A stretch of 64,000 nucleotides of DNA, taken from assembly GCF_022539665.2 (NCBI RefSeq), contig NC_081331.1:7998001-8062000 (forward strand), given 5' to 3'. Positions 1-22,905 of this stretch are shown piece by piece; within the stretch, counting starts at the first letter, position 1; each line of letters opens with the position of its first letter. A program made the position numbers and the translations under genes. This DNA is from Daphnia carinata. Lineage: Eukaryota. The notes under the pieces were generated by a model, which saw only the letters and a list, made by a program, of their open reading frames with translations, searched no databases and was not told where the DNA came from.

Positions 1-171
1 AAGCGTAGAAAGAAAAAGACATACGATATTGCTGAAGGGAAACGTGGGGTAAACATGAAGGGTGGAAAAGAAGCTTGAGGGTAACATAAGGGATAACCAC
101 ATTACAAGAGACTGAAAATGAATAACATGTAGAAAGTTTTTTTTTTTTTCTTTTCTCTTCCTTCGACCCCT

Positions 172-666
172 TTAAAGGCATCTCAGCCTCTTAGCACGAG
201 GGTCATCCTCGTCGTCATCCTCGCCGGATCTCTTATGGGACGCGTCCCAGTGGCACGATGTCCACCCGTAGAGCGGTGGGTGGCGCCCTTCAGGGTCCAG
301 ATCCAGGATCGCCTTCAGGGTGTTCACAGCGTCATGCCATTCCTCCATGTAGATCCGGTTTAGGAGAATTCCGGTCAGCTTATAGGTTCTGTCCTGCAGC
401 TGTCTTTTATCGCGAGCCATTCCCTGGAACCAATCTTCTTCATCTTGCTTCTCGTGGACTTCCACTCGGCTGAGGTCCACGGGCTCCTGCATCTCGCATG
501 GAGCCGGCGACTCCCTGGGAACGGTCTCCGCGTCGTCGGATGCCGAGGGTGAGACCAAGTTTACGACGACGACCTCCGGAAAGGGCAGCGGAATCGCTAC
601 AATTGGGGTCCAGGTGCCGTCGATCTCGGCCTCGATGATGGCGGACTGTGGCTTGTTGTCTTCCAT
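172..666 (-). CDS. Retroelement accessory protein (164 aa), 'LDLDP-RHP' family, copy in E1
   Basis: ATG-initiated intact ORF directly 3' of pol. WHDAVNTLKAILDLDPEGRHPPLYGW aligns with the ORFs at 14406-14846 and 15761-16183. C-terminal PRAKRLR basic cluster. Confidence 0.8.
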   Translation of the reverse strand: MEDNKPQSAIIEAEIDGTWTPIVAIPLPFPEVVVVNLVSPSASDDAETVPRESPAPCEMQEPVDLSRVEVHEKQDEEDWFQGMARDKRQLQDRTYKLTGILLNRIYMEEWHDAVNTLKAILDLDPEGRHPPLYGWTSCHWDASHKRSGEDDDEDDPRAKRLRCL

Positions 667-765
667 GGTACGGTGATTCAGAGCAACTACAGGTGGCGGA
701 ACGGATAGTTCGTAATTGCTTACTGAGAGTATGAGAAGTTGTGATCTGTTTCACTCGGCGCACGG

Positions 766-773
766 TTTATATA
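766..773 (-). promoter_or_regulatory. TATA box of the accessory ORF 172-666
   Basis: TATATAAA on the minus strand ~100 bp upstream of the ATG at 666. Same arrangement at both paralogous ORFs. Confidence 0.6.
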
Positions 774-824
774 GTAGTCCGCTCGGTGCAGTTTTGACAA
801 TCGAGACTATGCTATATGATGTCA

Positions 825-3800
825 CTACGTGTCGTCCCTGTAACGAATCGGCTTCCTCCTATTTCGCTGAGGGCGTCGGGTGACACTTTCTTGATGCGAC
901 AACGCTGATGTCCCATCATCCAAGGGTTCAGATTGCCGAAGGTCGAAATCACTGGCGGCGTATGTAGGATTGTTTTCGGAGAATGCCACTGGATGCTGTG
1001 AGTCAATCGTCACATCGCAATTGTCATTTGAGGACACTCGCCCTTCGATCGGCAGATGAGGCTGTCTGATCATATTGTCCCCTCGCACTAATTGATGGCT
1101 CACCGAATCGGTGTCTAATGTCAGCTCTGGCACGGCCTCGTTCACAACACTGGGTAGGCTTTCGGCCTCGTCCTTGAGCTCGTGTGCACACGCGTCTGCC
1201 GTTTGGGTTGCAACCGACTTGCGGAATCGGTTCTCAAATTCCGAGGGTGTCTCGAATGACGGGCAATGTTCATCTTTCCATAGCATTGTCTCGTACAAAG
1301 GTTTTAATCTATTTACATGCGTACGCTGGCATACGTACGAGTTATCAGCTATATCGACCGTATTATTCGAATAAACTTTTACCACTCTATACGGTCCTTT
1401 ATATTTTGACGTAAATTTCTTGCTATCTCCTTCCTTGACTACTCGAATATCCAATAACACCCGATCGCCTATCACATATCGTTTTTCTTTCGCGCGCTTG
1501 TTATATTGTTCCCTTTGGCGCTTTCTAGCTTTTTCGCTTTCCTCTCTAACTCTTTGAAAACTATAACGCAAACGTTCTGTCAGATTCCCAACATAGTCAG
1601 AAGAAGATTTGAATGTTTTGGGAGATGCATTAAGAAATTCGTTAATAGGAATGTTTGGGTCCCTACCGTGAAGTAAATAATATGGAGTGTCCAATGTCGA
1701 AGAGTGGACCGAGCTACGATACGCAAATAAAACATCATCTAATATTTCTTCCCAATTGGCATGCTCGCCGTCTTTTAATTCTTTTCTTAACATAGACGTT
1801 AAAGTTCGATTGAACCTTTCCGTCTCCCCATTACTAGCAGGGTTATAAGCGGTGGTTAACCTCTGATCGATCTTCAATTTTTTACAAAAATAGCGAAATA
1901 ACTTGGACGTGAAATTTGTCCCACGATCAGAAATAATTGCCTTAGGCATACCATGTCTAACAATAACAGTTTTATATACACATTCTGCTGTTGTCTGAGC
2001 AGTTTGATCTTTTAAAGCAACAGCCTCAACCCAACGGCTAAAATAATCTGTAATAACTAAAATGTAACTATTACCATTGGGCGAAACTGGTGTAATAGGA
2101 CCCAGAAAGTCCATTCCAATTACATCAAAAGGAGCCTTCGCAATTTCGTGCGGATGCAAAAGTGCTCGATAGGGTGAAGCAGTGTTGGCTATGCAAACTT
2201 CACAAGCCCGGCAATATTCTTTAACATCGCCTCTCATGTTGGGCCAATAATAATTATTTTTGACTTTCATATAGGTCTTATAAAATGCCAAATGTCCACC
2301 CATCGGTGCGTCGTGTAATTCTTTAAGCACTAGTTGGCGTAGGGATAATGGCAAAACTAATTGATGATGGGTGTCGTTCCTTTTATTACTCTGAGATGGC
2401 AGTTCCCGTCTATAAAGTATTCCTTCAATTACCTCAAAATATTCAATTTCCTTTACCCACTCGGGTTTGGACAATGTAAAAATTTCATCCAGCTCTCCTT
2501 CTTCCAGATAATTCTTGATGGCTATACAGAGGTCGTCCTCCTGTTGTTTTTCGCAGATCAATTTAATATCCTTCCCAGTTTGAATGCTAGCTATTTTTAA
2601 TCTAGACAAACAGTCCGCGTTCTGGTGAACACGGCCTGGCCTATATTTTAATTCATAATTTGTTGCAGCCAATAAAATGGCCCACCTCCCTAACCTTCCA
2701 TTATTATCCTTCTGATTTTTAAGCCACTGCAAAGGACGATGGTCACTAATTATCTCAAAGGGTTTATCCAAGAGATAGTGACGGAAATGTTTAATGGCAT
2801 CCACGACTGCCAGAGCTTCTTTTTCGGTTGTACTATACTTCATTTCCGCCTTAGTTAACTGCCTACTGGAGTACGCTATCGGGTGCTCTTGGCCGTTTTG
2901 CATTTGAGATAAGACGGCCCCAATACCATAGTCGCAGGCGTCAGTGAAAAGAATAAATTTTTCATTAAAATTTGGATATGCGAGAACCGGCGGTGTAACC
3001 AGGGATGTCCGTAACTTTACAAACGCGACTTGTTCTTCGTCTCCCCAGGTAAAAGGTCTTTTACTAAGATCTTTGTGAGTTAACCTAGTCAGAGGTTTTG
3101 CGATTGAACCAAAGTTGGGAATAAATCTCCTATAATAACCTGCTAACCCGAGAAATGACCTCACCTCATCGGCAGAAGTAGGCGTTTTGTAATTTAATAT
3201 TTTGTCGATTTTTCCAGGATCAGGTTTAATTCCCTCAGTCGAAATGACGTGGCCCAAATAATTTACAGAACTTTTAACGAATTGACATTTCTTAAGCTTT
3301 AATTTTAAATTGGCAGTTTTCAATAAGGTAAAAATTTCCCGAATATCTTTCAAATGATTATCAAAAGTATCCGAAAATATAATGACGTCATCCAAATAAG
3401 CTAACGCTTTATGTCCCAAAACGTCTTTCAGTACATAATTCATTAATCTTTGAAATGTGGCAGGTGCATTGCACAAGCCAAACGCCATCCTTTTAAACTC
3501 GTAAAGATTGTTTTCTACTACAAAAGCCGTTTTTTCAATGTCTGGTTCATTCACTTGAATTTGCCAGTAGCCGGAGGCCAAATCGAGGGTCGTAAAAAAT
3601 TTCTTCCCATATAATTTATCTAACGTTTCATCAATCCTTGGCATAGGGAATGAATCTTTTTTTGTAATGCTATTTAATTTCCGATAATCAACGCAAAACC
3701 TCACGTCTCCGCCTTTCTTCTCAACCAAAACCACAGGTGACGCCCATGGAGAATGAGAATATTGTATTACATTTGCGTCCATCATTTCCTGCACTTTATC

Positions 3801-4801
3801 CTCCAGTATCTTTCTTTGGTGGTTCGTAACTCGATAGGGTCGTTGCCGGATAGGGCCTCTTCCTTGGGTATCGATCGTATGCTTAATGAGATTAGTGCTC
3901 CCTAATTCCGACTCTTTTGTTGCGAACAAGTCATGAAAGTCATTTAATAAACTTGAGAGCGGAGCTTGAAATTCAGCGTCGACTTCCGAAATTAAAACTA
4001 GCTCCCGTTTTTGTGTAGGCTTTTCCTCTGGTTGACATAAGGCAATCTTACCAATTACGTTATGAATTACTTCGATTTGGCCTAAGGTTGTATTCCTAGG
4101 AAGTATGACTTGACTTAACGAATGGTTTTCGACCATAATTTGATATTTCCCATCTCCCGATACAGTTCCAACAAATTCTTCAATAAAAATACCGGCCGGC
4201 AAATCCTCTGCTGGGGTAAAAATAAATGTGCTATTAGGGGGGACATACGGAAATGAACCTGTCATTTGCGCTGCGATTACGAGCGCCGTCTGACGAACTA
4301 GCGTCGTCTTTTTGACCGTCGTAATTGCCATGTCTGGTGCCCTAGAGATGGCTGATCCCTGCTCATCCCTGGCTAAGTAAATACGTTTGGCTTCTCCGTC
4401 AAGCCGAAACCCGTGTTTCTGGATTGCATCCCATCCAAGGATACAGTCTTCAGAAACACCATTTGTAACAATGAACTCTTGCCGTAAAACGGACTCTCCG
4501 TAACGTACGGGCAATGTAACTTTACCCAGCGTATGCAACTTGTTATCTCCCACATCGTATAAATCGAAATCAAGCTGACTGCAGGTTACTTGATTTCTCG
4601 AGGGAAGCTTTTGAAATATCTTCTCGTGAATTATGCTTCTAGACGCGCCTGTGTCAAATAATGCCTGTAAAGGGATCTGAAAAATTTGTAATGGAATTCT
4701 GGGGGTCGATTCGTTTATTATTGTTGTTAATTTCGCAACTTGTCGGGATTTCAACTGAGGTACCCTATCAACTGACCCGAAGTTACAGTTGATACTTATT
4801 G
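825..4801 (-). CDS. pol: Pol polyprotein of E1 (protease, reverse transcriptase, RNase H, integrase), expressed by -1 frameshift from gag
   Basis: LFDTGAS protease; LDLASGYWQI and YLDD RT motifs; FTDACDYGIGAVL RNase H; HHCC zinc finger (LHDAPMGGH...CRACEVC); integrase D-D-E (GMDF, ISDRG, ETERFN); GPY motif. Gypsy domain order, no internal stops. Confidence 0.96.
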
Positions 4802-4808
4802 GTTTCCC
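4743..4808 (-). promoter_or_regulatory. Programmed -1 ribosomal frameshift signal (G GGA AAC plus downstream hairpin/pseudoknot), E1
   Basis: GGGAAAC at 4808-4802, 7-nt spacer, 9-bp stem TATCAACTG/CAGTTGATA (4794-4766). Loop TCGGG is complementary to downstream CCCGA (4747-4743). A -1 slip leads into the pol frame (PISINCNFGSVDRVPQLKSRQ). Confidence 0.85.
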
Positions 4809-6067
4809 TGATGCTGAGGGGGACCCGGAATATTAGGCCTACTGGCCCTATACTTAGGACAATTGTTTGATTTATGGCCGATCTCACGGCAAGAATAGCA
4901 AATTGGGGGCTGTGCTTGTTCCAACATATACCGTTGAAATTTACGGCACTCCGATTGTGTGTGACCCCGAAACCCACAATAGTTGCAAGTTATTACATTC
5001 TCAATAGGCCCATTGTTCGGATTATGACCAGATCTTGGCGAAGATGGCATATAATTTGTAGGCCTATTTTGGTTCTTATCCCCTTGATACGGGTGGGTGT
5101 TACTCTTAGGGAAAGGTGGAGGGTTTGTCTTCCAGTTAACTTTCCCGATTGCCGTTGCCTGTTTGAAATGATACCCTTTTTTTATATGGGGCACCCGCCG
5201 AAGAAGAAACATTATCCTTCTTATTAATTTGGAGTTGTTTGACCGCCTGACTGAGCTCGCGCAGCGCATCTTTAATTTCATCCTTCTCCGATTTCGGAGT
5301 GTCTACGATCTTGTTCCCTTGACGTATATTCGCGACGGCCTGATTGACTATTGCTTTCTGATCGATTAACATCTGCTTAATCTCATGCAATTCTGTATTT
5401 TCTGCACCTTTCGACTCGTCGATCGCCCTAACAAACTCATGTTTTTCACGGTCAGATTCGAGTGCTTCCAAGCGAACAGCATAAACGCGTGTCGTTGCAA
5501 CCAGTGCGTTAAAGTCGCCAAATTCTTTGTACTTAACTTTCGCCTGTAACTTGGAATCCAAACCTTCGATAAATTTCTGCATGAGAATAATTGAAAAGGA
5601 ACGCTCGATATGGCCTACAGGATACGCTTTTTTAAAGATTTCCTGAAGACGATGAGCATAATCAATTATTTTTTCTCCCGGTTTCCGTTTAGCCTTATTA
5701 AATTTCTTAATATACAAGTCAACGTTTTCGTCCCCGTGAAAGTGATCAAGTAAAGCTTCTTTAATAGACGTATAGTCATGAGGATGATCTTTGACAATAT
5801 TTTGCACTACGGAAAAAGCCTTATCAGTCATTTTTGCTCGCAACATCTGAATAACCTTCTCCTCTGACCATCCTGACCCCTCAACTACGCTTTCAAAGGA
5901 TTCGATCCAGGAATCAAAACGAGAAATTGGACTCCCTGAAAAAGAAGGAAGCAGTTGTAAGCGCGCGAAGGTATGTTGGGTAGTCTGAAGATCGTTCAAG
6001 TCGTTGACCGTGGCTGCCCGTGATGGGGATGAAGAACTAGCCATGTTTGGATTAAATGAAGGGAAAT

Positions 6068-9000
6068 TTATTGTTCCTCGTTGTGGATTCGGAGGGAGTT
6101 CTGGAATGCCACTCGAAATTGCCTGATGCCCTCTGGTATCTCTTCCGGTCGTCTGGAGGGTTGGATGTGAGGAACGATTCGATTGATTGATCGTCTGCAA
6201 CGTTGGCGTCTGCTGTGTGTCCGCCGTTCTTGCGAGGTTGTTTCCGACAGCGGCGATGTGTGTTGGGCCGGTGTGGCTTGTAGTTGGGTAATGTTCGTTT
6301 GTATGCACAACAGCGCTTGTTTCAATCGTATTTCCGTTTGCGTGATTAGTGGTTTGATGTTGTTGGCCTCCTGTGCGTTGACTGGGTTGTTGGCTTTCGG
6401 AAAATTGTTCAGTTTGTCCAAGAGAAGTTGAATTTCTGGTTGCAGCACCTCCAAATTGTTGATTAAGTTTAGTTTTTCCAAGTACGACGCTAGGTTGTTC
6501 ACTTCCTTCAAGAATGCTCGTTGTGATGCCAGTAAGATTTCTTCCAGATGGATTGATATGTCGCTCACTACCCCTAGTAGAACAAGATATCTTCACACAA
6601 TCTTAAAGATAGCGATACATCTATGGCAAATACATCTTAGATATCTTACTACTATCTTTGTACTAGCTTTGTACTAGCTAAATGTCATGGGGTGGAGATA
6701 TCTTGTTTATATATCTTACGAATATCCTAAAAGCCACTTTCTAGATAACTGTATAGGGAACTTATCGCTCTAAAATAAATAGTAAATACAAAAAAAAGAA
6801 TACATTTTTTAAAGACAGTTTATTTTTAAAATCCGAATTACAATTGGCAAAGAAAAACAAGTTACAAACTGTGACAGGAAGACATTCAAGTCTTATTATT
6901 AATTAGAATCGCTGCTGTTGTCTTCCGCCGCAAGTTTCACTTGTTCTGCCACAAAACGCCCTTTTGCATTATGAAGATACGATTTGGTTTCAGCGACGAA
7001 CACTTCTTTTTCCAGATCTTTAAACTTTGAATTGGAGATGATTCTAACTAAATATAAAATATTTTTATTTAACTACTTATTTTACTCTTTACTTATATCT
7101 CTTCTCTATATAAAATGGTTACCTCTTACTAATTCCGTTATACGACAAGAGTGGATTCCTTTTTTTCCCATTCCGCCGTTTACTCTCTTATCACGTCTCC
7201 CAAGCCAATTTACATCCTTAGAGAGTGAATCTTCAAATACTGTTCTCCACGCTCTTTGTACACATAGTCGCCTTCAGAATTTTTGGAATTCTTTTTCCTG
7301 AAAGACGGATTTTTCGGACTATCTATTCATGAATGAAAGAGGAGTTTAACATACTAAATGAAATATATAAATTATTGAAAACTTACTAGCTTCTTCAGAT
7401 TTTCATCTTTTTTAAGAATTTTTTCGAATGCTTCCAATACTAAGTTTTTTAATGGAAAAGAAGCAATGCCTTCATCTATTTCCTCAATGCATTCGTCAAC
7501 TGGATTAATTTTTTTATCGATCATAGACAACTTTTCATTAATCTTGGCAAGGTCAGAGAAGTATTTCTCTTTGTCGTGATTGACTTTCTTTGGAATGGGA
7601 AGAGACGATGGAGAATCCGTAGCATAATAAGACGAAGAATCTCGGGATGTAGAAGGGCCGGAACTACTTTCAGCATCTAAAAAAATATGGTTAAGGATTA
7701 TACGTTTAAAATGAAAATATTCTGATTAGTTACGAAGTTGCAGATGATGTGATTTTTGTGACATTTGGCCTATAGCTTGTTATTGCTCCAATATTTTGCT
7801 GGCTCGGAAATTCAGGGACAGTTGATGGTGTTTGATAAGAAGAATTCATTAAATGTGAATTATAGTTCCAGTACGGCTGCTGCATTCCCCAGTTGTAATG
7901 ACCACCATTGTAATTAAATTGCGGATGCATATTTTCTGATATGTTCACAATAAACAAAATAAAGAAAAATATGTAAAACAGTATTGAAAAAGAGGTTGAT
8001 GAAAGAAAGGTATTTTTTATGATTACCGAACTGGTGGGTTCCATATGAGTCGTCGGAATTACCTATTTAATGCACAAGAATATTTTGAAAAAAAAGGTTT
8101 AGCATTAAACTAGAATTAACATTACCAGACTGAATCGACTGTTGAATTTGCATATCCACAGGAGACGACGAATCTTCTGTAATTATAGAATAAGGAGAGT
8201 AAGGTAATTATAGAAGGAGTGCACTGCACATTTAATCCGAATAGTAACGGCGAACAAAAACACGATATAATAGACAAGACAACAGTAACTGAACCAAAAA
8301 TTAAGAAGTAAATAATATCATTATTACCAGGTTGAAACGATTGTTGACTTGGCATATGCACAGGAGACGATGTATCTTCTATAATTATAGAATAAGTTAG
8401 GTAATTACCGCAAGAGTGACCGGCACATTTGTCCGAAAAGAAACGTGAAACAAAAATAAACGATATACTACGAGACCACAGTAACTGTACCAAAATAACG
8501 AAATAAGCAGCATAATTACCAGGCGCATTCAATGAGAGAACTTTGGCATTGGAACGCACTATTAACGCTTCCAGACTTGACATATCGCTATGAGGTAACG
8601 AAAATTTTTCAACTTAATGAAAAATTGCGTTGCATGAATGTTATGCAACAATGTATTAAATATTATAATTACGAGACGAATTTGACGAAAGGACCACAGC
8701 ATTAGAAGACAAACGTTTATCAGAACTGGAGGAACCTCTCTTACTAGTAGAAGCAGCAGCAATGACTAAACGAAATGACAATAAGACTTGGTTTATAGGT
8801 TTGTTAAAAGTTCAAAATCAATTATCCTTTTTAGTTGACGTTGAAGCATTGCTGGATTGTTTAGAAACCAACAAGGCTCTAGGAGGTATTGGAAGCAAAG
8901 TAGAAGTGGCCATTCCTTTGGCAGAGTTTGTATGGGAGGCTTTCTTAATCGTCTTTCCTTTGCTGGGTGCTGATTTTTTAGGTGGGCTGAGAGACTCTCC

Positions 9001-10129
9001 CTCGCTGTCTATTTCTGTTGTTGATTGTCCAGGTATATTTAGTTTCTTCCTTTTAGGGACTCGTTTTCCTCTGCCTGAGTTTTCTTGATTAAGAATGGGC
9101 AGGCCAGTTTCAACACGGGGAAGACTTGTTGTTGCTTCTTCATACGTGTCTTTAAAAAGGAAGCAATATTGTTACATTAAACATACAAAATGAAGTAGTA
9201 ACGCAAATTACCAAAAGTTCCAATTATTTGGAAATCCTCGTATCTCTGCCATGTTTCCTCATCAGGTGGAACGCCACACTACAAAATTTGGATTTGATGT
9301 GCAGCTGAATAACTATCATTCGGTAAATAGAGAATGTCTTCCTCTATCCAATTTTCTGCCACTACATAAAGCCAGTTATCTATTATAGGTAATATTTTGG
9401 GAACTTCAACAATACAACAACAATACAAAGGTATTGAATATCTCATAATATATCTAGCAGTTAGCTGGTAGATATCTATAAAGACATATAAAATTGATAT
9501 GACTTTTTGATATACAATAGATATCTTAGAGAACTAAATACATCGGCTAGACATATATATATCTTAAAGATAGGAGTAAGATATCTTGTTCTACTAGGGA
9601 CGGTGATTATCTCCACGTATCTGCCGTCCTCGTCGGTGGTTTCGATATCTTTTCTCGGAACGAACCCGAAAATTCTTCCCGCTCTCGTTGGTGTGATCTT
9701 TTGCAGATCGATGAGATTGTAGATTTGACCGTGTAGACAAGTCAAAACCTGTCTCGCGTGCCGGGTGAAAATCCCCTTGAGCTCCGTCACAACCTCCCCT
9801 ATCTGCTTCTTCGTCTTCTTCGGTATCGGTCCACTGACTTTCACTTCCAGAATGGATGTCAGGTACTTCAGGAGAATCCTCGGTTGTTTCCAATTCGTCT
9901 GCGTCGGCTGTTCCACGTGGTAATTCCTCTGGACGTCGAGCATCAACTGGACAAGGTGATCCCAGATTTTCGGGTCGCTTGACTGAAAATCCTTCTCCCT
10001 CTCCTTGAGGCTTTGGAGGGTTAGTAATAGGAACGGCAGCTGGCTTTTCGGTGACTGAAAGATGTTGTTTTCGTTCTTTTTGACTTCTTGCAAAAGATGC
10101 TTGAGACTCACGTTGAGCTGTTCTTCCAT
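6068..10129 (-). CDS. Overprinted +1-frame ORF X within the E1 gag 5' extension (343 aa reconstructed; split by the DNA transposon)
   Basis: 10129-9600 plus 6569-6068 = 1032 nt open frame. Colinear with E2 ORF 21512-22561 (SQLPxLLLTLxxLKERExDFQSxxPxIW...). Arg-rich C-terminal tail. Confidence 0.78.
6572..9599. mobile_element. Non-autonomous DNA transposon, probably CMC/EnSpm (CACTA-type)
   Basis: Perfect 22-bp TIRs CCCTAGTAGAACAAGATATCTT, 2-bp TSD AC (6570-6571 / 9600-9601), subterminal AGATATCT repeats. Precise removal restores both gag and ORF X frames. Confidence 0.88.
6899..9446 (-). pseudogene. Spliced accessory gene of the DNA transposon (DUF4806-like / EnSpm ORF2-like), with stop codons
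   Basis: Exon 1 MRYSIP...VVAENWIEEDILYLPN..*..PPDEETWQRY..IIGTF spliced to DTYEEA. C-terminal NWLGRRDK and ETKSYLHNAKGRF. Pattern typical of CMC-element accessory proteins; no transposase seen. Confidence 0.5.
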
Positions 10130-10645: not shown

Positions 10646-10656
10646 CGCTGCCACCA
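10646..10656 (-). other. Primer binding site complementary to the 3' end of tRNA-Leu
   Basis: TGGTGGCAGCG 3 nt after the LTR end; complementary to ...CGCTGCCACCA, the 3' end of eukaryotic tRNA-Leu(AAG/TAG). Confidence 0.82.
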
Positions 10657-11373: not shown

Positions 11374-12907
11374 ATAGTCTCCCACCAAGATGTATAACTT
11401 CCGACACCAGATGCCGTTACAAAAATGTTTGTCGCACTAGGTCTTTGACGTAAGGTATATTCCGATGGCGGGTGTTCGTTGATCGCGGTAGCCATATCGG
11501 CCATGATGTTCATGTGATTGAGCATGTTGTCGGTATATGCTGGATTACTTTGATCCACGTAGTCGAAAAACTCGACGTTTTCGTAGCGAAAAGAGTATGC
11601 GAGCGTCTGCTCCGGCAACACAATTGTGGTTTCAATTAATTGCCAGGTGTTGTTGCGGAAAGCGTAAGGTTTGTCGTTAAAGTTTACAAATCCGTTTGTC
11701 CAATAGCAAGGGGAATATTTAACAAGTTCCCAGCCATCGAGGTTAATTGTATAATTTTGAAATTTTGGTTGCGGTCCGCAAGAAGTCAAAATAGTATCAA
11801 ATGTTACATTTAAGGCTTTACACTGTATCAGTACAGCCGTTTTACCGAAAGCTTGTAATTTTGTGCACTTTGGTAATTGTAGTTGAGAGGCTGCTAACCA
11901 TCCATTATATTGAGCAGTTGTAACGGCTTTTTCATGTTTGGCTTTGCGACCATCGCACTGTAATAATTGAATTTGACTTGCCAATTCGTTTTCATGATCG
12001 GTTAGTTGATCCCGAATATATTGAATATTCGCCGGTATGTTTAAATCTTCAGCGCTAGATGGTGCCGGAGGCTCCGATGTTGTTGTTGAATTTTTCATGA
12101 TGGCTGCCGTTGTGACAAAGAGTTGTGATTGGCAAAGGATTTCAAAGGAAGAAGTCCTATTGGAGCAATTTTTCTGTACTGAAAAACAACGTGATATCGG
12201 CAACAGGTGAAAGTCTAGTTGATTTCGGTCGTCTTGAAGTCTGAAAATTTGTTTTTCTCCAGGCAATTGCATCAACTTGCCGATACCTTCTTCGATAAGC
12301 CGGGTAATTGCTTTAGTTTTCTGTGTGTAGGTTTTGTCCCAAATCAGAGTTAAATGATTATGTGACAAATTTCCCGACGTAGCGGAAGCAATTCCGATAG
12401 GTGTTGAAAAATCCGCATTCTCCTTTTGTTGGAAAAGTTGAATTTTATCGAGAACACAGTTTAATATTTCGGAATCGATTGTTTGCAACCAATATCCAGA
12501 AATATCGGGTTCATTGTCGAACACAAATTTGCCATCCGAAAAAGTCATTCGTTGATTGTCGCACCTTTTATTGTTAATCATTTCGTTGCACTCAGCAGGT
12601 GTTGTATCGATGGAAATTTTATCTGGCACGATCACTGTTTGTCCGAAAAAATTCATTGTAATACGTCTTATATTTTTCCAGCGCGCACACATAATCCCGG
12701 AAACTTGATCGCAGCTCGTTCTTCACTATATACGGCATATTTTACACCGATGGCACGATTTTCGGTAGATTTCGGTTGACAATTCGCGTCAGAGAATTGA
12801 ATAATTCCCATTTTCGACGGTTCCGAACAATCGCAAACGGTTGTTTCAAATGCTCGCGAGTGCAACCAGTGAAGGCACAATAGCAGCAGAAATGGAAATA
12901 GAGACAT
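11374..12907 (-). pseudogene. env: env-like glycoprotein, probable class III viral fusogen (herpes gB / rhabdovirus G-like), ~510 aa visible
   Basis: Signal peptide MSLFPFLLLLCLHWLHSRA, Cys-rich ectodomain, N-glycosylation sequons (NRT, NST, NLS, NVT, NYT, NNT). GxMC..W...T..FFG...C segment and NIQYIRDQLTDHENELASQIQLLQC helix. 1-nt deletion near 12693; cut by the E1 LTR after SWWETI. Confidence 0.75.
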
Positions 12908-13461: not shown

Positions 13462-13530
13462 TAACTAATAGCTTTACGGTAGCGGTCTCAGCTGTGATGC
13501 CAAAGGTCTGAGGTTCGAATCCCCAGTTTG
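13462..13530 (+). ncRNA. tRNA-like Pol III-type element (A box plus B box), antisense within E2
   Basis: TAGCTTTACGGT (13469-13480) and GGTTCGAATCC (13512-13522) with T-arm stem CTGAGG/CCCCAG. No convincing acceptor or anticodon stem. Confidence 0.45.
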
Positions 13531-14405
13531 ACTAGATGACTCATCATTTGCCAAGTAGTGGATATATCAAGCTACAAGAAAGCGTGCATATAATTTCGCC
13601 ATATATATATATGATGAAACAGAAAGATGCGAAAGTTAGATTTTTTCTAAGTCCAACGTAGTGAGAAAGAGAGAGAGAGAGAAAGAAAATGGAAGGAAAA
13701 GACAGAGATAAAGAATGTGATATATGAGAAGAAATGGAAATTATCCCTCAAGGCGTGTAACAAGGCCATATGCTCCAGACATATTGTGTTGAAAACGAGA
13801 CATGTTACTTGCCCTGTGGCAAAATGTAGCGGCAATATTAACGCGCATAAATGGGGCGTATATTGTTTATGAAAAAGAAGGAATAGAAGGTAAAAACTCT
13901 ACCTGGCGCGAGAGAGAGAAAAGAATAGGAATAAGGGAAATGGAAAATGCGAGAATGCATTTTCGGCAACTTGTATCATTTGCCGTAAGGAAGTCTGTGG
14001 ATAACGTGTGGCGAGTGACAGAAAAATTAAGTTTTTTATATATATGGTGTGGATTGGTTTATTTGGATACCTTGACAGACGGTCAAGTTATGCATGTAGT
14101 ATAGACTTATTCGATTTTCGGTCTATACGCAACCCTAGGTAAGGTAGTGGGTTTCCCTTTTCGGTTTATGATTTCTTTTGGTATATAACCTTATTTTATT
14201 TGTATTTTCTTTCATAATGGTTCCCCCCCCCGTATTTCCTAGCGTTTAATTTCCTGACTACAAATGGGGACAAGTTGGCTACTACCTATTTATTGATATG
14301 CAACACTCAAGGGAACGAGTTACATAGAATTAGGTAAGACTACATTGAGAGAAGTGAAAATTGTTGGTGTTCTCTTCTGCTGTTCCTTTTGTTTGTTTTT
14401 TTCTT

Positions 14406-14846
14406 TTAGTAGGCTGGTGGATAGCGATGTTCTTTGCAATGGAGGCACAGGTCGTCATCCGCCCAGCTTTCGGCCGACCAGTCGAAGAGCGGCGGGTGTC
14501 GATTGGCTGGATCCAAATCCAGTATCTCCTTGAAGCGCTCCGTCGCTTTCCTCCACTTCTTCAGCTCGATGCAGCGCATTAATCCTTGGGTAAGGGCATG
14601 GGTGACCGCATCCAGCTCTTCCTGAAGCTCCTGGACTCGTTCTCTACAGGCCTCCGCCGGGTTTTGTTCTCGTTCGGCTGCAGCTGGGCCCGGGGCTGCG
14701 GCTGCGACTGGTGCTGCGGCTTCTCCCGGATGTGCGATCGCAGCGTCCGTATTACCTGGTTCCTCAGCAACGCGGGCCTGTTGCGGATGCTGACGGCACG
14801 CCCGTTTCGCGGCGGGTCCTCCTGCACGGTTATTGTTTTCGGCCAT
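14406..14846 (-). CDS. Retroelement accessory protein (146 aa), 'LDLDP-RHP' family, second copy in E2
   Basis: Intact ORF; WRKATERFKEILDLDPANRHPPLFDW motif; N-terminal PAAKRACR; TATATAAA at 14942-14935. Confidence 0.8.
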   Translation of the reverse strand: MAENNNRAGGPAAKRACRQHPQQARVAEEPGNTDAAIAHPGEAAAPVAAAAPGPAAAEREQNPAEACRERVQELQEELDAVTHALTQGLMRCIELKKWRKATERFKEILDLDPANRHPPLFDWSAESWADDDLCLHCKEHRYPPAY

Positions 14847-15339: not shown

Positions 15340-15433
15340 GTTGGCTAAGTGGCTCAGTTGGTATAGCCTCTGCCAACGACTCGGGAGTTTCGAGTTCTAG
15401 ACTCGCCAACATCTTCCTTTTTTTTTTTTTTTT
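15340..15433 (+). ncRNA. tRNA-like Pol III-type cassette with oligo-T terminator, antisense within E2
   Basis: A box TGGCTCAGTTGG (15350-15361), T-arm-like CGAG-TTCTAGA-CTCG, terminal stem GTTGGC/GCCAAC, long T run from 15418. Confidence 0.55.
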
Positions 15434-15760: not shown

Positions 15761-16183
15761 TTACAAACGGTCATACCAATCGCGCCTTGGCCTTTTGTTA
15801 GCTGTGTTCCACAGCTCCGACGACCAGTTGTAAAGCGACGGATGGCGTTTGGCTGGATCTAAGTCCAGAATCCTTTTCAGAGTGTTAACTGCGCTGGCCC
15901 AATCTTCAGCGAAGAGCTCAGCGTTAAGTCTCGTGGTGAGTTTTTCAGTTTTCTCCTCGAGGCGTCGTTCGTAGTTGCGCCGAGCCAGATCCCAAGAATC
16001 TTGGCTAACCTGGTCTGGGGATTGAGGTCTCTTCTCAACCAACTCGACCGTGTCGTCTGCCGTTGGTTCCCAAGAAAAATCTGCAGTGGGCTCCGTTGTT
16101 GTCACCACTTCGTTAGCTTGCACCTCGTCACAAGTCCCTTCGACGGTGACTTGTTCGTGTTGAACGCTAGTTTGGTTTTCCAT
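15761..16183 (-). CDS. Retroelement accessory protein (140 aa), 'LDLDP-RHP' family, first copy in E2 (positional ortholog of 172-666)
   Basis: Intact ORF right after pol; WASAVNTLKRILDLDPAKRHPSLYNW; C-terminal KRPRR; TATATAA at 16289-16283. Confidence 0.8.
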   Translation of the reverse strand: MENQTSVQHEQVTVEGTCDEVQANEVVTTTEPTADFSWEPTADDTVELVEKRPQSPDQVSQDSWDLARRNYERRLEEKTEKLTTRLNAELFAEDWASAVNTLKRILDLDPAKRHPSLYNWSSELWNTANKRPRRDWYDRL

Positions 16184-16369: not shown

Positions 16370-19300
16370 TTAATCTCTGAAACGCATTGGCAATTGTCTA
16401 TTCCTTTGTGGGCGTCCGGTTGCGTTTTGTGGTGTCGTTGTTGCTGACGGAACGACATCAGATGCTATCTGCTGCGTTTCATAATTATCATTGGAATCAT
16501 CTTCGGCAATTGGTGTGAGATTGAGGTGATTGTCAATTCCCAGCCTCGTTGTTTCTATCTCCACGGTGTCTGAAACCATGTTTTCAGTTTCCACTGTTTC
16601 GGATTCCATATTTTCAACATCCACGCTATCTGGATGCTCTTTTTCCGGTTCCACATTTTCTACTTCGCTTGTTTCTTGTTCCAGTTGTTCCTCACTTTCC
16701 ATTGTTTGGGTCGAGATCGATTTACGGAATCGATTCTCGAATGTTGAAGGCGACTCGATAGGGGGACAATGTTCATCTTTCCATAACATTGTTTCATATG
16801 GGGGTTTTAAACGGTTAACGTGCGTACGTGTACATATATATGAATTGTCGGCTATGTCGACAGTATTATTGGAATATACTTTTACAATTCTATAAGGGCC
16901 TTTATATTTGGAAGTAAATTTCCTACTATCGCCCTCTTTTACAACTCTAATATCTAAGAAGACTCTATCTCCTACCAAATATTGTTTTACATTCGCTCTT
17001 TTATTATATTGCTCCCTTCGACGTTTTCTGGCTTTCTCGCTCTCTTCACGGACGCGTTGGAAACTATAGCGCAAGCGTTCGGCTAAGTTACCTACGTAAT
17101 CCGATGCGGATATAAATGTTTTTGGGGAAGCGTCAAGAATTTCATTGATGGGTAAATTAGGGTCTCTACCGTGTAATGAGTAATAAGGGGTGTCCAGTGT
17201 AGAAGAATGGACAGAACTACGATAAGCAAACAAAACATCATCCAGCAAATCTTCCCAATTTGCATGCTCTCCGTCTTTCAATTCCTTCCTCAACATTGTT
17301 GTTAATGTTCTATTAAACCTTTCGGTTTCTCCGTTACTAGCTGGAGTATAAGCAGTCGTTAGCCGTTAATCAATTTTTAACTTTTTACAAAAGTAACGAA
17401 ATAATTTCGACGTGAAATTGGTCCCGCGGTCTGAAAGAATAGCTTTAGGCATACCGTGTCTAACTATTATTGTTTTGTACACACATTCTGCTGTTGTCTG
17501 CGCAGTCTGATCCTTTAAAGTAACAGCTTTCACCCATCGGCTAAAATAATCTGTGATAACTAAAATGTAACTGTTTCCATTGGGCGAGGCTGGTGTGATA
17601 GGGCCTAGAAAATCCATACCTATAACCTGAAAAGGGGCCTTTGCAATTTCATGAGGATGCAATAACGCTCTGTAATTCGATGAAGTGTTGGCGATGCATA
17701 CCTCACAAGCCTGGCAATACTCTTTTATGTCTTTTCTCATATTTGGCCAATAATAATGATTCTTTACTTTCAAATAGGTTTTATAAAAGCCTAAATGTCC
17801 ACTCATCGGTGCATCATGTAGTTCTTTGAGCACTAGATGACGTAACGATGTAGGTAAGACCAACTGATGGTGAGTTTCGTTTCTTTTGCTATCAGAAGAT
17901 GGCAGCACGTGCCGGTAAAGCGTACCGTCAATAACTTCAAAATAATCAATTTCTTTTACCCAATCTGGCTTAGATTGGAGAAAAGCTTCTTCAAGTTCAC
18001 CGTTATCTAAATAATTTCGAATAGCTATGCAAAGGTCGTCTTCTAATTTTTTTTCACAAATTAATTTAATATTACGTTCGGTTTGGATACTAGCTATTTT
18101 TAAGCGTGACAAGCAATCTGCGTTTTGGTGAATACGTCCCGGTCTGTATTTTAATTCATAATTTGTTGCGGCCAACAGGATAGCCCATCTTCCTAATCTC
18201 CCATTGTTATCTTTCTGATTCTTAAGCCATTGAAGTGGACGATGATCACTTATGATCTCAAAAGGTTGGTCTAAAAGGTAATGTCGAAAATGCTTAATCG
18301 CATCGATAACCGCAAGTGCCTCTTTTTCAGTCGTACTGTATTTAGCTTCTGCCTTCGTTAGCTGTCTACTGGAATACGCGATTGGGTGCTCGTGACCATT
18401 TTGAATTTGGGACAGTACCGCTCCAATGTCTTAATCGCATGCATCGGTAAAAAGGAAAAATTTCTCGTTGAAATTGGGGTAAGCAAGCACTGGTGGAGTC
18501 ACTAAAGATGTACGCAAGGTTTCGAAAGCACTATTTTCTTCGTCTCCCCAATTAAAAGGTTTTCTGCTAAGATCTTTATGGGTTAATCTGGTTAACGGTT
18601 TGGCGATTGATCCAAAATTTTTAATAAATCGTCTGTAATACCCAGCTAGACCCAGAAATGATCTGACTTCATCTACCGAAGCGGGTCTTTTATAATTAAT
18701 TATTTTCTCAATTTTACTCGGATCAGGTTTAATACCATCAGTCGAGATGACATGGCCTAAATAATTGACTGAACTTTTAATGAACTGGCATTTTTTTGTT
18801 TTAATTTTAAATTGGCTTTTTTCAATAACTCAAAGATTTCGCAAATATCGTTCAAGTGATCGTCAAAAGTGTCCGAAAAGATGATTACGTCATCCAAGTA
18901 AACTAACGCCTTACTTCCCAAAACGTCTTTCAGTACGTAATTCATTAGTCTTTGAAATGTCGCAGGTGCATTGCACAATCCAAATGCCATACGTTTAAAT
19001 TCATAAAGGTTATTTTCTACTACAAATGCTGTTTTTTCAATAGCCGGCTCATCAACTTGAATTTGCCAGTAACCTGAAGCTAAATCAAGAGTGGTGAAGA
19101 ATTTCTTCCCATACAATTTGTCCAATGTTTCATCTATCCTCGGCATAGGGAAAGAATCCTTTTTTGTAATACTATTTAATTTCCTATAGTCAACGCAAAA
19201 TCTTACTTCCCCACCCTTTTTTTCCACTAGAACCACAGGTGAAGCCCATGGCGAATGTGAATATTGGATCACATTAGCATCCAACATTTCCTGTACTTTA

Positions 19301-20303
19301 TCTTCCAATATTTTTCTTTGATTATTTGTAACTCGATAAGGGCGTTGTCGAATAGGGCCTCTTCCTTGTGTATCAATTGTATGTTTAATGAGATTAGTGT
19401 TCCCTAATTCTGAATCTTTTGCTGCGAACAAGTCGTGAAAGTCATTTAATAGTTTCGAGAGCGGAGCTTGAAATTCAGCGTCGACTTCTGAAATTAAAAC
19501 GGGCTCACTTTTAATAGTAGGCTTTTCTTCTAACTTACTTAAAGCAATTTTCCCAATTACGTTATGAATAATCTCGATTACGCCTAATGTAGTGTTCCTA
19601 GGAAGTATGACTTGATTTAACGAATGATTCTCGACAATAATTTGATATTTCCTATCTTTAGCTACGTTTCCAATGAATTCCTCAATAAAAATACCGTTCG
19701 GCAAATCCTCTGCTGGGGTAAACATAAATGTGGTATTAGGGGGGACATACGGAAATGAACCTTTCATTTGCGTTGCAATTACTAGCGAAGTCTGACGAAA
19801 TAACGTCGTCTTTTTGACCGTCGTAACTGCCATGTCTGGTACCCTAGAGATGGCTGATCCCTGCTCATCCCTTGCTAAATAAATACTTCTGGCTTCTCCG
19901 TCAAGCCGAAAACCGTGCTTCTGGATTGCATCCCATCCAAGGATACAGTCTTCAGAAACACCATTTGTAACAATAAACTCTTGCCTTAAAACTGACTCTC
20001 CGTATCGTACGGGCAATGTCACTCTTCCCAGCGTTTGTAACTTTTTCTCCCCTACATCATACAAATCGAAATCAAGCTGACTGCAGATCACTTGACCTCT
20101 CGGGGGTAACTTATGAAATATTCTCTCGTGAATAATGCTGTTAGACGCGCCTGTATCAAATAAGGCTTGAAACGGTATCTGAAAAATTTTTAATGGAATT
20201 CTAGGGGTCGATTCATTTGTTATAGTTGTTAATTTTGCGACTTGTCGGGATTTTAACTGAGGCTCCCTATCAACTGACCCGAAGTTACAGTTGATATTTA
20301 TTG
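16370..20303 (-). pseudogene. pol: pol of E2 (PR-RT-RH-IN), disrupted
   Basis: Highly similar to E1 pol. Frameshift in an A-run near 18790; in-frame stops near 18432 (TDACD*) and 17366 (KID*). Confidence 0.93.
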
Positions 20304-20310
20304 GTTTCCC
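20245..20310 (-). promoter_or_regulatory. -1 frameshift signal of E2
   Basis: GGGAAAC (20310-20304), same 9-bp stem (20296-20268) and same downstream CCCGA as E1. Confidence 0.85.
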
Positions 20311-22905
20311 TGACGCTGAGGGGGACCTGGAATATTCGGCCTATCGGAGATCCTGAACTTGGGACAGTTATTCGATTTGTGTCCGATTTCACGACAAGAA
20401 TAACAAATTGGAGGCTGTGCTTGTTCCAAATTATGACGTTGGAATTTACGGCATTCCGATTGTGTATGCCCACGAAAACCGCAGAAATTGCAAGTTATTC
20501 CATTTTGTGGAGGTCTATTTCTCGAATCATTAAAAGGTCTCGAAAACGAGGGCGTGGACTGTGTAGGTCTATTGGAGGATCCCGCATGTTGGTAAGAATT
20601 GGTGTTATTATTGGACCGATGAGGAGGTCTCCAATTTCTGTCTTGGTTACCGCTATTGGTTTGGAAATAAACTTGTTTCTTATAAGGGTTGCCTGTTGGA
20701 GAAGAAGAATAATCTTTCTTGTCCATTTGGAGTTGTTTTACTGCTTGCGTGAGTTCATGAATTTTTATTCCCTTGACCAATAGAAGCAACGACATTATTG
20801 ACTATCTCTTTCTGGTCGATTAACATCTGCTTGAGTTCCGTCAAATCCGAATGTTGCGTGTCACACGACCCATCGATTGCCCTAACGAATTCATGTTTTT
20901 CCCGATCTTTCTCTAAAGCTTCCAAACGAACGGCATAAATACGCGTTGACGCAACAAGCTCGGTAAAGTCGCGAAATTCCTTATAACGAACTTTGGCCTG
21001 CAATTTAGAATCCAACCCCTCGATAAATTTTTGCATAAGGATGATTGTGAACGATTTCTCAGCATAACCTTCTGGATACGCGTCTCGTGCAAGCGGTGCG
21101 CATAGTCGACAATTTTTTCGCCTGGTTTACGTTTAGCCTTATTGAATTTTTTAATATAGACATCGACGTTTTCATCCCCATGAAAGTGATCAAGTAACGC
21201 TTCTTTAATAGACGCATAATCATACGGATGTTGCCTTATAATGTTTTGGAGTACTGAAAAAGCCTTATCTGACATTTTAGCTCGCAGCATCTGAATGATC
21301 TTTTCTTCTGACCATGATGCCCCATCAACTATGCTTTCAAAAGATTCCAGCCAAGAGTCGAAGCGAGAAATTGTACTTCCCGTAAAGGAAGGGAGCAATT
21401 GTAGGCGCGAAAAAGTGTGTTGGTTTGTCTGAAAGTCATTTAAGTCGTTGACTGTGGCTGCACGTGAAGGAGAATAAGATTTGGCCATGTTGGTATCGAA
21501 AATGGGAGGATTCAACGTCTTCCGCCTTGGATTCGGAGGGTGTCCTGAAATGCTCTTCGTAATCGCCTCAGTTGCGCTATCAGATCTTCCTGCTGGCTGG
21601 ATTGCTGGGCTCGAGGAGGGTGTTGAGTGCGTGACTGGCTGGAAGGCCGGTTTCTTTGGCGTGCTCGCCTTCTCCTCGGAATGCGTTCCGACAGCGGCGA
21701 TTCCCGCGGACTCGGCGTGGTTTGCTGTTCTTCCTGGAATCTCGGAATGTATGATAGCAGCTGTCTCAATTCGTAGGGAGCCGCGACGAGTGTTTCCAAG
21801 ATTTCCTTCGTTATCCGCTGTCCGTCCGGTTGCACCGATGTCTGGAAGTTGTTGAATTTGGTCTGAAGCGATGTCAGTTCCGGCAATAATCCCTCCAAAC
21901 TGCTTATGGACTGAACTTTTCTTAGGTAAGGGACCAGGTGGAGGATGTCCTTGAGGAACTTCAGCTGGTACTCCCGCAGGGTGTCCTTTAGGTAGGTTGA
22001 GAACTGCGATATCTCGATTGCTAGAAGGAAGTATGTCCTGTCCCCGAGGTTGTTGAGCAAGCTTTCCTTGGGGGCAAAGTTGAAGAGGTACTTTTCCTTC
22101 GCCGGCGTGAATGTCAGCAACTCGACGATGTTGTAAGTCTGTCCTAGTAGGTAAATCGTAAACTCCCTCGCATAGGTTGTGAAGATTGCTTTCAACGTGG
22201 CCACTTGGTTCTCCGCAACCTGTGCCGTTGTCCTGGTTTGTCCAATTGTTATCGTTTCCAGAATTGTTCCCAAGGCTTTCAGGAGTGTCTTCGGGTTTTT
22301 CAAATCCGGTGTCACGTTGGCTTGGTATTGGTACTGCAGCCGGATTGTTTGCATCAACGATCGTAGTTGTTCCCAAATTAACGGATTGGTTGACTGGAAA
22401 TCCAATTCCCTCTCCTTGAGGTACCTGAGCGTCAGTAGTAGGGACGGTAACTGACTCGTTGGAGCCGGGAATATTCTCGATTGATTGGTCGTGATCTCGT
22501 GGTATATGTGATGGAGTGCTCGAGAGAAAACTGGTCTTTGATGTGTTTCCCACAGGTGATTTTATGGGAGAAAAACGAGAAGCTAACCTAGCATAAACAG
22601 ACGGTGCGGGCTGAGTAGGTGTAACGGAAGCTTTGATACGGCCCCAAATTTTCTTAGTGGGAGTTTTAACTAATGGGGCTACGGCCTCATACGCGGTGTT
22701 AGACCTCAATTTCTTCAACTGTGTTTTATCTGTCTGTACTTTAGGAGTTAAAACAGGAGAGGTAGATGGTTTAATGGCTTCTGTTTCTTTGTCTGAAGTC
22801 TGACTGCCTTGAGAAGAATGCGGAACGGTCGCGGTAGAGGCTGACAATTTTTCAAAACTAATCAATTTAGCAATCGTTTCGTCATTGATTTGCACTACGG
22901 GAGGT
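20298..22905 (-). pseudogene. gag: gag of E2, 5'-truncated by the foldback element, two frameshifting deletions
   Basis: INDETIAKLISFEKL matches E1 IDESVARAINFEAL. Capsid-like region and two CCHC knuckles. Frame breaks near 21085 and 20765. Confidence 0.88.
21512..22561 (-). CDS. Overprinted +1-frame ORF X within E2 gag (open for ~350 codons, no upstream ATG)
   Basis: Frame open from the stop at 22564-22562 to the stop at 21514-21512. Homologous to E1 ORF X throughout; ends in SPRESPLSERIPRRRRARQR. Confidence 0.78.
   Translation of the reverse strand, partial: NHLWETHQRPVFSRALHHIYHEITTNQSRIFPAPTSQLPSLLLTLRYLKERELDFQSTNPLIWEQLRSLMQTIRLQYQYQANVTPDLKNPKTLLKALGTILETITIGQTRTTAQVAENQVATLKAIFTTYAREFTIYLLGQTYNIVELLTFTPAKEKYLFNFAPKESLLNNLGDRTYFLLAIEISQFSTYLKDTLREYQLKFLKDILHLVPYLRKVQSISSLEGLLPELTSLQTKFNNFQTSVQPDGQRITKEILETLVAAPYELRQLLSYIPRFQEEQQTTPSPRESPLSERIPRRRRARQRNRPSSQSRTQHPPRAQQSSQQEDLIAQLRRLRRAFQDTLRIQGGRR

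What the first reader, a model, noticed from the sequence alone, without database searches (positions are those of the whole stretch)
1..22905. A Ty3/Gypsy family built like a complex enveloped retrovirus
Seen: two diverged members share the layout LTR-PBS-gag(+overprinted ORF X)-(-1 frameshift)-pol-accessory ORF. E2 continues with a second accessory ORF, two tRNA-like cassettes and env. Established: most Ty3/Gypsy elements have only gag-pol, insect errantiviruses add a baculovirus F-type env, and multiple accessory genes with internal promoters are a hallmark of complex retroviruses (foamy, delta, lenti). Inference: this is an endogenous, possibly infectious retrovirus-like lineage with at least six coding units. 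I do not recognise this combination as a described element.
Basis: partly seen in the sequence, partly recalled or inferred. Interest (0 to 1): 0.9.

Follow-up and report, generated by a model that had tools for sequence, protein, structure and literature searches.

The report
Water-flea retroelement with retrovirus-like accessory genes
Two broken, likely nested copies of a water-flea envelope-carrying retrotransposon, a kind already catalogued, also carry a second reading frame inside gag and small extra genes before env; these recur in other Daphnia species and likely act as accessory genes, as in complex retroviruses.

Summary
The six coding units are real: gag, an overlapping +1 frame (ORF X), pol reached through a -1 slippery site, two paralogous small ORFs, and env. 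The env is predicted to be a class III (gB / rhabdovirus G-like) fusogen, not the baculovirus F type. Daphnia Ty3/Gypsy elements with gB-type env and this primer-binding site are already catalogued (PMC13524379), so an enveloped Ty3/Gypsy is not new.

I did not find the extra genes in print. They have 15 short homologues; 4 of 8 named ones carry the accession next to an env in D. magna or D. sinensis, once in E2's order. Each follows a TATA motif about 100 nt upstream, and 14 of 19 carry PPxY. ORF X is more conserved than the gag frame it overlaps.

- The single LTR is E1's 5' LTR. It cuts E2's env just before the transmembrane anchor, so it does not close E2.
- E2 has no LTR or PBS in the window.
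- Neither copy is intact.
- The tRNA-like cassettes fail ARAGORN and Rfam and are absent from the two closest relatives.
- Expression and infectivity are untested.

Verdict: new variant of a known kind.

The parts
172..666 (-). E1 accessory ORF (acc1 type, 164 codons, internal PPxY); TATA motif 107 nt upstream
825..4832 (-). E1 pol, uninterrupted 1335 codons, PR-RT-RNase H-IN
4766..4808 (-). E1 -1 frameshift signal: slippery heptamer G GGA AAC and downstream hairpin
4796..6571 (-). E1 gag, 3' part (internal ATG at 6044, capsid, zinc knuckles); frameshift near 5.14 kb
6068..6571 (-). E1 ORF X, 3' piece (+1 frame over gag; stop 23 nt before the internal gag ATG)
6572..9599 (.). 3.0-kb insertion with 40-bp terminal inverted repeats (CCC...GGG) and a 2-bp target duplication, splitting E1 gag/ORF X; likely a DNA transposon
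9600..10625 (-). E1 gag, 5' part (first ATG 10625), with the 5' piece of ORF X (ATG 10129) overlapping in +1
10645..10656 (-). primer-binding site; its 12-mer equals that listed for Dpul_errantivirus_4, and two other listed elements with a near-identical site are typed tRNA-Leu
10660..11373 (-). LTR (714 bp), 5' LTR of E1; abuts E2 env coding sequence directly
11374..12907 (-). E2 env, predicted class III gB/G-like fusogen; frameshift near 12.7 kb; cut before the transmembrane anchor
13462..13535 (+). tRNA-like stretch 2 (A/B-box-like words, perfect B box); not called by ARAGORN or Rfam
14406..14846 (-). E2 accessory ORF 2 (146 codons, CxxC and C-terminal PPxY); TATA motif 96 nt upstream
15340..15411 (+). 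tRNA-like stretch 1 (A/B-box-like words, followed by a T run); not called by ARAGORN or Rfam
15761..16183 (-). E2 accessory ORF 1 (140 codons); TATA motif 106 nt upstream
16370..20334 (-). E2 pol, broken by one frameshift (near 18.8 kb) and two in-frame stops
20268..20310 (-). E2 -1 frameshift signal (same heptamer and hairpin)
20298..22905 (-). E2 gag, 5' end missing, broken near 21.1 kb and 20.76 kb; internal ATG at 21488
21512..22561 (-). E2 ORF X, 349 open codons in +1 frame, stop 23 nt before the internal gag ATG; no ATG at the position of E1's
22906..29510 (.). long inverted-repeat element (2.9-kb arms, 95% complementary) that cuts off E2's 5' end; not part of the retroelement

Best explanation

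Shown: gene order; homology; purifying-type conservation of ORF X and the accessory ORFs; the accessory-env neighbourhood in D. magna and D. sinensis; loss of env's anchor at the LTR edge.

Inferred steps:
(1) The LTR transcript gives a long Gag, and Gag-Pol by -1 slippage at G GGA AAC (likely, about 0.9).
(2) ORF X is translated from the overlapping frame, and its stop just before a strong internal ATG would favour a shorter capsid-nucleocapsid Gag by reinitiation (ORF X coding about 0.8; reinitiation about 0.4).
(3) Accessory ORFs are made from short internal transcripts (about 0.7).
(4) Env is made from a spliced or internally started mRNA and is predicted to be a class III fusogen (about 0.85 for the fold).
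(5) The accessory protein is predicted to be a disordered chain plus a helical hairpin and a PPxY motif. It would most likely bind WW-domain proteins such as Nedd4-type ubiquitin ligases, supplying in trans the budding signal missing from E1/E2 Gag or removing a host restriction factor (about 0.35; a nuclear regulator about 0.3).
(6) E1 inserted into E2's env (about 0.8).
For: Pol: best solved relative is Ty3 Gag-Pol, E 2.5e-123, against 4.9e-39 for foamy virus.

Env: 75 homologues, the best 67% identical, named ones from Daphnia. The model matches herpes gB (Foldseek E 5e-10) and rhabdo/chu-like G proteins (E 8e-12). 11 of 31 env-bearing loci also carry a related pol.

Accessory family: 15 short hits among 42 at E<=0.001; 8 are named D. 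magna or D. sinensis. 4 of these 8 have an env homologue at the next accession number. One D. magna gene model fuses an acc2 homologue (48%) to env (65%), and its neighbour is an acc1 homologue, the same three genes as in E2.

TATA motif: 96-107 nt before the ATG in 5 of 6 post-pol ORFs examined and 70 nt in the sixth; background 99 of 2042 window ATGs.

Accessory codons: third positions vary most (0.60-0.63 against 0.33-0.39 at second positions), and the other frames are closed.

ORF X: identity 41% and 33% against 28% and 25% in the gag frame; 40/33% against 30/30% when aligned in the gag frame. The third frame holds 17-20 stops. 1 of 5000 synonymous-codon nulls gives so long a +1 frame. A D. 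magna gene model keeps a piece in the ORF X frame (pairwise E 2e-7). L011 has a 496-codon +1 ORF stopping 2 nt before the capsid-core ATG.

PPxY: in 14 of 19 accessory sequences (shuffle mean 0.5). The three full-length acc2-type ones have PPxF at the usual site and PPxY at the C-terminus. None of PPxY, P[TS]AP or YPxL occurs in the E1/E2 gag pieces.

Slippery site plus hairpin: E1, E2 and 5 of 6 loci tested.
Against: No transcript, promoter mapping, protein or particle data were obtained.

What E1 carries after its accessory ORF, and the far end of the proposed nested insertion, lie outside the window, and no genome was held.

ORF X has no database homologue and no significant likeness to L011's +1 ORF (best E 0.08). 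E2's copy lacks an ATG where E1 has one.

The accessory block is not family-wide. Among 31 loci only L002 scores with the profile, and L002 was in the profile and was missed by tblastn. L004, L011 and L021 carry unrelated ORFs after pol, and L014, L015, L018, L020, L022 and L026 have short spacers.

TATA background inside A/T-rich spacers is higher: 3 of 28 to 5 of 29, counting the tested ATGs.

The PPxY count reflects shared ancestry, the acc2 shift is one event, and E2's own acc1 and L002 lack the motif. K[KR]x[KR] occurs in 13 of 19, which fits a nuclear role equally. The env model has low global confidence (pTM 0.33, TM-scores 0.2-0.36).
Confidence: 0.72

Rival explanations
1. An ordinary catalogued Daphnia errantivirus (gag-pol-env) whose long pol-env spacer holds captured or passenger ORFs and SINE-like debris with no role in the element's cycle; ORF X is a by-product of a low-complexity gag region.
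For: The core layout, env type and PBS are already listed for Daphnia and Ceriodaphnia. LTR elements are known to capture ORFs after pol or between pol and env (PMC6431247 passage). Spacer content varies among relatives. No function or family was found for the accessory ORFs or ORF X.
Against: The same accessory family sits beside env in three Daphnia datasets, as two distinct paralogue types. Codon patterns show selection. TATA spacing is uniform. ORF X is more conserved than the gag frame and rare under the null.
Confidence: 0.17
2. E2 and E1 form a head-to-tail array sharing one LTR, and the env tail was lost afterwards by a deletion ending exactly at the LTR edge.
For: A purine-rich stretch precedes the LTR. 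Env-LTR-gag arrangements occur in assembled relatives (L011, L019, L021, L005), and one D. magna gene model joins a distant env to this gag.
Against: The sequence up to the TG is env coding ('SWWET', as in P0001). In the relatives shown with a TGTAA-type LTR start (L004, L005, L006, L011), the env anchor, stop codon and a short conserved 3' motif precede it; all are missing here. E1 and E2 are only 78% identical.
Confidence: 0.2
3. The accessory proteins are nuclear regulators (transactivators of the LTR or anti-silencing factors, like foamy virus Tas), not membrane or budding adaptors.
For: Acidic, low-confidence N-terminal half; basic K[KR]x[KR] patches in 13 of 19; internal TATA promoter as for foamy tas/bet (PMC12789967 passage); fast turnover at this slot among relatives.
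Against: No DNA-binding domain match. The most conserved part is the hairpin plus PPxY/W tail. K[KR]x[KR] is a common pattern and was not tested against shuffles.
Confidence: 0.3

Closest known systems
Branchiopoda HSV/gB-type errantiviruses (Branchiopoda_C2 set; Dpul_errantivirus_3 and _4, Cdub_errantivirus_6) of Chary and Hayashi, eLife 2026, PMC13524379
   Same: Ty3/Gypsy pol, gag-pol-env order, gB-type env of the same family, same PBS 12-mer as Dpul_4. Locus L018, whose env reads letter for letter like the listed Dpul_4 fragment over the 80-odd residues I compared by eye, is 47% identical to E1 in pol and 34% to E2 in env.
   Different: E1/E2 fall in a sister clade to L018 (100/100 support). 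None of the 15 listed C2 env fragments looks like the window's subtype by eye. No overlapping or accessory ORFs appear in the text I searched. The paper's screen allowed 1000 nt between pol and env, or a 3000-nt extension; E2's spacer is about 3.5 kb, which would explain a miss (inference).
Oikopleura Tor3b/Tor4b elements (PMC4402516)
   Same: Ty3/Gypsy elements with env, a spacer after pol and a mapped internal promoter (passages).
   Different: There the internal promoter drives env itself; no paralogous accessory ORFs or overprinted gag frame in the passages read.
Complex retroviruses (spuma-, delta-, lenti-, epsilonretroviruses)
   Same: Extra small genes beyond gag-pol-env; foamy viruses drive them from an internal promoter (PMC12789967 passages).
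   Different: Pol is Ty3-like, not retroviral; env is class III; the accessory genes lie before env; no regulatory function is shown.
LTR retrotransposons with extra ORFs (bdelloid Juno/Vesta, PMC5408684; plant Ogre and planarian Burro, PMC6431247)
   Same: Ty3/Gypsy-type elements carrying additional ORFs (passages).
   Different: Those are enzyme captures or single unknown ORFs, usually in place of env; here env is kept along with a duplicated orphan family and an overprinted gag frame.

Membership tests
Ty3/Gypsy LTR retrotransposon | pol order PR-RT-RNase H-IN and RT/IN closest to Ty3 | tested here: met
Ty3/Gypsy LTR retrotransposon | gag with capsid and CCHC knuckle | tested here: met
   PNMA and Retrotrans_gag hits (PNMA above its cut-off, Retrotrans_gag below), zf-CCHC above cut-off
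Ty3/Gypsy LTR retrotransposon | two LTRs, PBS, target duplication | tested here: inconclusive
   one LTR and PBS (E1); the other ends lie outside the window or are lost
Errantivirus in the operational sense of PMC13524379 (env-carrying Ty3/Gypsy) | env-like fusogen downstream of pol, F or gB type | tested here: met
   gB/G-like model; pol-env linkage in relatives; shown for E2, not visible for E1
Errantivirus in the operational sense of PMC13524379 (env-carrying Ty3/Gypsy) | intact gag, pol and env with signal peptide and transmembrane anchor | tested here: not met
   both window copies are broken; full-length env homologues exist in D. magna, so this bears on the copies, not the family
Branchiopoda_C2 gB-type group | C2c cysteine-bridge configuration | tested here: inconclusive
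   invariant cysteines in alignment A1 match the listed fragments by eye; the defining figure was not visible
Branchiopoda_C2 gB-type group | multiple near-identical copies in the host genome | not testable with these tools
   no genome held; D. magna/sinensis env clusters have 23-25 members across assemblies
Insect errantivirus with baculovirus-like F env | F-type (class I) env | tested here: not met
   the top PDB and BFVD matches shown are class III fusogens
Complex retrovirus (Retroviridae) | retroviral pol | tested here: not met
   Ty3 E 2.5e-123 against foamy 4.9e-39 and MLV 1.8e-30
Complex retrovirus (Retroviridae) | accessory genes expressed from spliced or internal transcripts with regulatory function | not testable with these tools
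   only TATA motifs and conservation
tRNA / tRNA-derived pol III gene | cloverleaf passing ARAGORN or Rfam tRNA model | tested here: not met
   A/B-box-like words remain
Vta1 C-terminal (VSL) domain | significant sequence or fold match | tested here: inconclusive
   Z 6.2, rmsd 1.7, 53 aligned, tied with unrelated hairpins; Pfam E 0.2 for 1 of 17 members

The most novel reading that the evidence does not exclude
A Daphnia clade of Ty3/Gypsy elements independently evolved a complex-retrovirus genome plan: an overprinted gene in gag coupled to a short Gag, duplicated accessory genes on their own internal promoters that supply a PPxY signal in trans, antisense pol III RNAs and a class III envelope, with intact members still spreading as enveloped particles.
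Probability: 0.3. Interest if true: 0.85.

Novelty: new variant of a known kind. Interest (0 to 1): 0.62.

Why it matters
Accessory genes with their own promoters and overprinted frames are treated as a mark of complex vertebrate retroviruses. A Ty3/Gypsy clade that reached the same plan with unrelated genes would show convergence, in a tractable laboratory animal. It would also name candidate helpers for gB-type errantiviruses, whose entry mechanism PMC13524379 calls unknown. And it suggests that surveys which cap the pol-env distance miss the most gene-rich elements.

Tried and rejected
- No whole genome was held, so copy number and E1's downstream half could not be read.
- The look-up of sequencing runs listed no run; this is no evidence on expression.
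- Single-sequence locus searches with env found nothing, and viral contigs gave no confirmed locus for env or pol. The env alignment found 31 loci.
- ORF X: no hit by single sequence (4180 candidates), by alignment (7998 candidates, 91-611 residues only) or in the Atlas.
- Accessory protein: Atlas hits 0.82 or less, TPR-like; PDB sequences E>=0.37; fold search Z<=6.4, a generic helical hairpin. 27 of 42 profile hits are long multi-match proteins; the 2 I read are TPR-like repeats and were left out as family members.
- tRNA-like stretches: ARAGORN calls them only at -ps70, where the window gives over 200 calls. A T-arm plus A-box pattern, tuned after seeing them, gives 2 hits in E2's spacer, 0 in the other 121 kb of window strand and 1 in 22 kb of relatives' spacers (L021, antisense; 70 of 300 shuffles reach 1). 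I do not count them as a family feature.
- Rejected: F-type env; LTR as E2's native 3' end; a second LTR or E2's 5' end elsewhere in the window.
- The env tree is the quick, unfinished version, and both trees are midpoint-rooted with no outgroup.
- Earlier scan findings: none returned.
Full report
Setting. The named homologues of env and of the accessory ORFs come from Daphnia magna, D. sinensis and D. pulex, so the window is most likely from a Daphnia. No whole genome was held. Everything below lies on the minus strand unless stated.

Anatomy. Reading down from 22905, E2 gives a 5'-truncated gag with a 349-codon +1 frame (ORF X), pol, two small ORFs, two tRNA-like stretches on the opposite strand, and env. 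A 714-bp LTR (11373-10660), a PBS and the start of E1's gag follow. A 3.0-kb terminal-inverted-repeat insertion with a 2-bp target duplication splits E1's gag and ORF X. Then come the rest of gag, an uninterrupted 1335-codon pol and one small ORF, after which the window ends. E1 and E2 are 78% identical over 4.9 kb. Only one LTR and one match to this PBS exist in the 64 kb. E2 is broken in gag, pol and env, and E1 in gag.

Whose LTR. Env homologues continue past a 'SWWET'-like motif into a transmembrane helix and tail. 41 of 59 scored homologues have a hydrophobic stretch of 2.0 or more there; on a wider set, 75 of 92 motif stretches reach 1.9. The window's env switches to LTR sequence at that motif (best score 0.75). 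In L004, L005, L006 and L011 the env stop and a short conserved motif precede a TGTAA start; both are missing here. So the LTR is E1's 5' LTR and E1 most likely inserted into E2's env. A deletion in a shared-LTR array cannot be excluded without the flank.

Classification. Pol has the PR-RT-RNase H-IN order and is closest to Ty3 among solved structures. A G GGA AAC heptamer in the gag frame with a hairpin 6-7 nt downstream is present in E1, E2 and 5 of 6 loci tested. The env model (pLDDT 73, pTM 0.33) matches herpesvirus gB and rhabdo/chu-like glycoproteins, with low TM-scores but E-values of 1e-10 to 1e-11. A YAG lies within 7 nt before the env ATG in the window and in 10 of 14 loci listed (several loci are near-duplicates), which suggests a splice acceptor (inference).

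Prior art for the core. From PMC13524379 I read the abstract, section 14 whole, the first parts of sections 5, 6 and 9, keyword passages, 30 Diplostraca rows of supplement file 2 (one more row unseen) and part 1 of file 3. It lists intact gB-type errantiviruses in Daphnia and Ceriodaphnia (14 such rows seen), three with this PBS or a one-letter variant. L018's env reads like the listed Dpul_4 fragment by eye and is 47% identical to E1 in pol. In the pol tree E1, E2, L002, L004 and L011 form a clade (100/100) apart from L018 and five others. So the core is known and the window belongs to a sister sub-clade. The held main text has no 'accessory', 'overlapping' or 'extra ORF'. The search listing counted 'accessory' twice in a longer version I could not see, and the figures, the other supplement parts, the GitHub files and Repbase were not seen.

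Accessory ORFs. The three window ORFs share a C-terminal core. Between copies, third codon positions vary most and the other frames are closed. A profile search of 1.84 billion representatives gave 42 hits, 15 of them short family members. Eight are named D. magna or D. sinensis, and four of these have an env homologue at the next accession number; this is a lower bound, since only 5 env clusters were looked up and 15 members shown per cluster. One D. magna model fuses acc2 to env and its neighbour is acc1. L002 (pol 65% identical) has a more distant homologue right after pol. A TATA motif sits 96-107 nt before the ATG in E1 acc, acc1, acc2, L002 and L004, and 70 nt before it in L021, against 99 of 2042 window ATGs and 11-17% in spacers. 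The block is not universal: six more distant loci have short spacers, and three carry unrelated ORFs there.

What the accessory protein may do. The model is a low-confidence N-terminal half plus a helical hairpin with no specific fold match. PPxY occurs in 14 of 19 sequences. The acc2 type has PPxF at the usual site and PPxY at its C-terminus, and the E1/E2 gag pieces have none of three late-domain patterns. PPxY is a retroviral late-domain motif (PMC12789967 passages); that it binds WW domains of Nedd4-type ligases is recalled. I put an adaptor role at about 0.35 and a nuclear regulator at about 0.3.

ORF X. Both overlapping frames are stop-free and the third is closed. The +1 frame is the more conserved whichever frame is aligned, and only 1 of 5000 synonymous nulls gives such a run. 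In E1 and E2 it stops 23 nt before a strong internal ATG at the capsid core; in L011 a non-homologous 496-codon +1 ORF stops 2 nt before the equivalent ATG; L018, L021 and L022 have none. A D. magna gene model holds a piece in this frame. No other homologue was found, and E2's copy lacks E1's ATG.

tRNA-like stretches. They carry A/B-box-like words and are unusual for the window, but fail ARAGORN and Rfam, do not fold as cloverleaves (z -2.4 and +1.3) and are absent from the full spacers of L002 and L004. Decayed SINE heads are as likely as element-encoded pol III RNAs.

Other literature. Passages only: internal env promoter in Oikopleura Tor (PMC4402516); ORF capture after pol or between pol and env (PMC6431247; PMC5408684); tRNA-like sequence in non-autonomous LTRs (PMC10886601). 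In PMC2996953 the three 'env' passages shown concern 'environment'. Nine full-text searches (listings only, apart from the papers named) showed no description of this accessory family or of an overprinted gag frame in a Daphnia element; subscription journals are not covered.

Verdict. Observation partly confirmed, interpretation partly supported. This is a new variant of a known kind: a gene-rich sub-clade of catalogued gB-type errantiviruses, seen here as two decayed copies. Interest 0.62; 0.85 if the full complex-retrovirus reading (probability 0.3) holds.

Noticed in passing
window 22906-29510: Fold-back element with 2.9-kb arms (95% complementary), internal 780-800-bp tandem units and 15-nt terminal repeats; no target duplication seen at its ends.
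   Followed up: partly
window 29516-44395 and 40765-64000: Further long inverted pairs (634 bp 99%, 844 bp 98%, 503 bp 95%) suggest nested DNA elements or local inversions.
   Followed up: no
window 32740-33470, 36320-36880, 41380-42350: Three decayed copies of a Tyr/Thr-rich peptide-repeat gene, with in-frame stops, in both orientations.
   Followed up: no
window 49078-49728 (-) and 56831-59019 (+): Host-like exons: FGGY kinase N-terminal domain; BRK plus TFIIS_M domains.
   Followed up: partly
window 6572-9599: Insertion with CCC...GGG ends and a 2-bp target duplication; that this points to a CMC/EnSpm-type transposon is recalled, not tested. No Pfam match below E 0.01 in the four inner ORFs scanned.
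   Followed up: partly
L004 1830-2396, L021 4600-4908, L011 12131-12922: Unrelated orphan ORFs occupy the same slot right after pol; those of L004 and L021 follow a TATA motif, and L021's is cysteine-paired; no Pfam match. The slot seems to swap cargo.
   Followed up: partly
L021 about 5485-5560 (antisense): A tRNA-like stretch in the pol-env spacer of a distant relative, same orientation as in E2.
   Followed up: partly
L004, L005, L006, L011 after the env stop: A shared short motif (about 12 nt) 15-25 nt before the LTR start, and no classical purine tract in three of the four.
   Followed up: no
protein P0075: A D. magna gene model joins a rhabdovirus-nucleocapsid-like domain to env and gag pieces of this family.
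   Followed up: no
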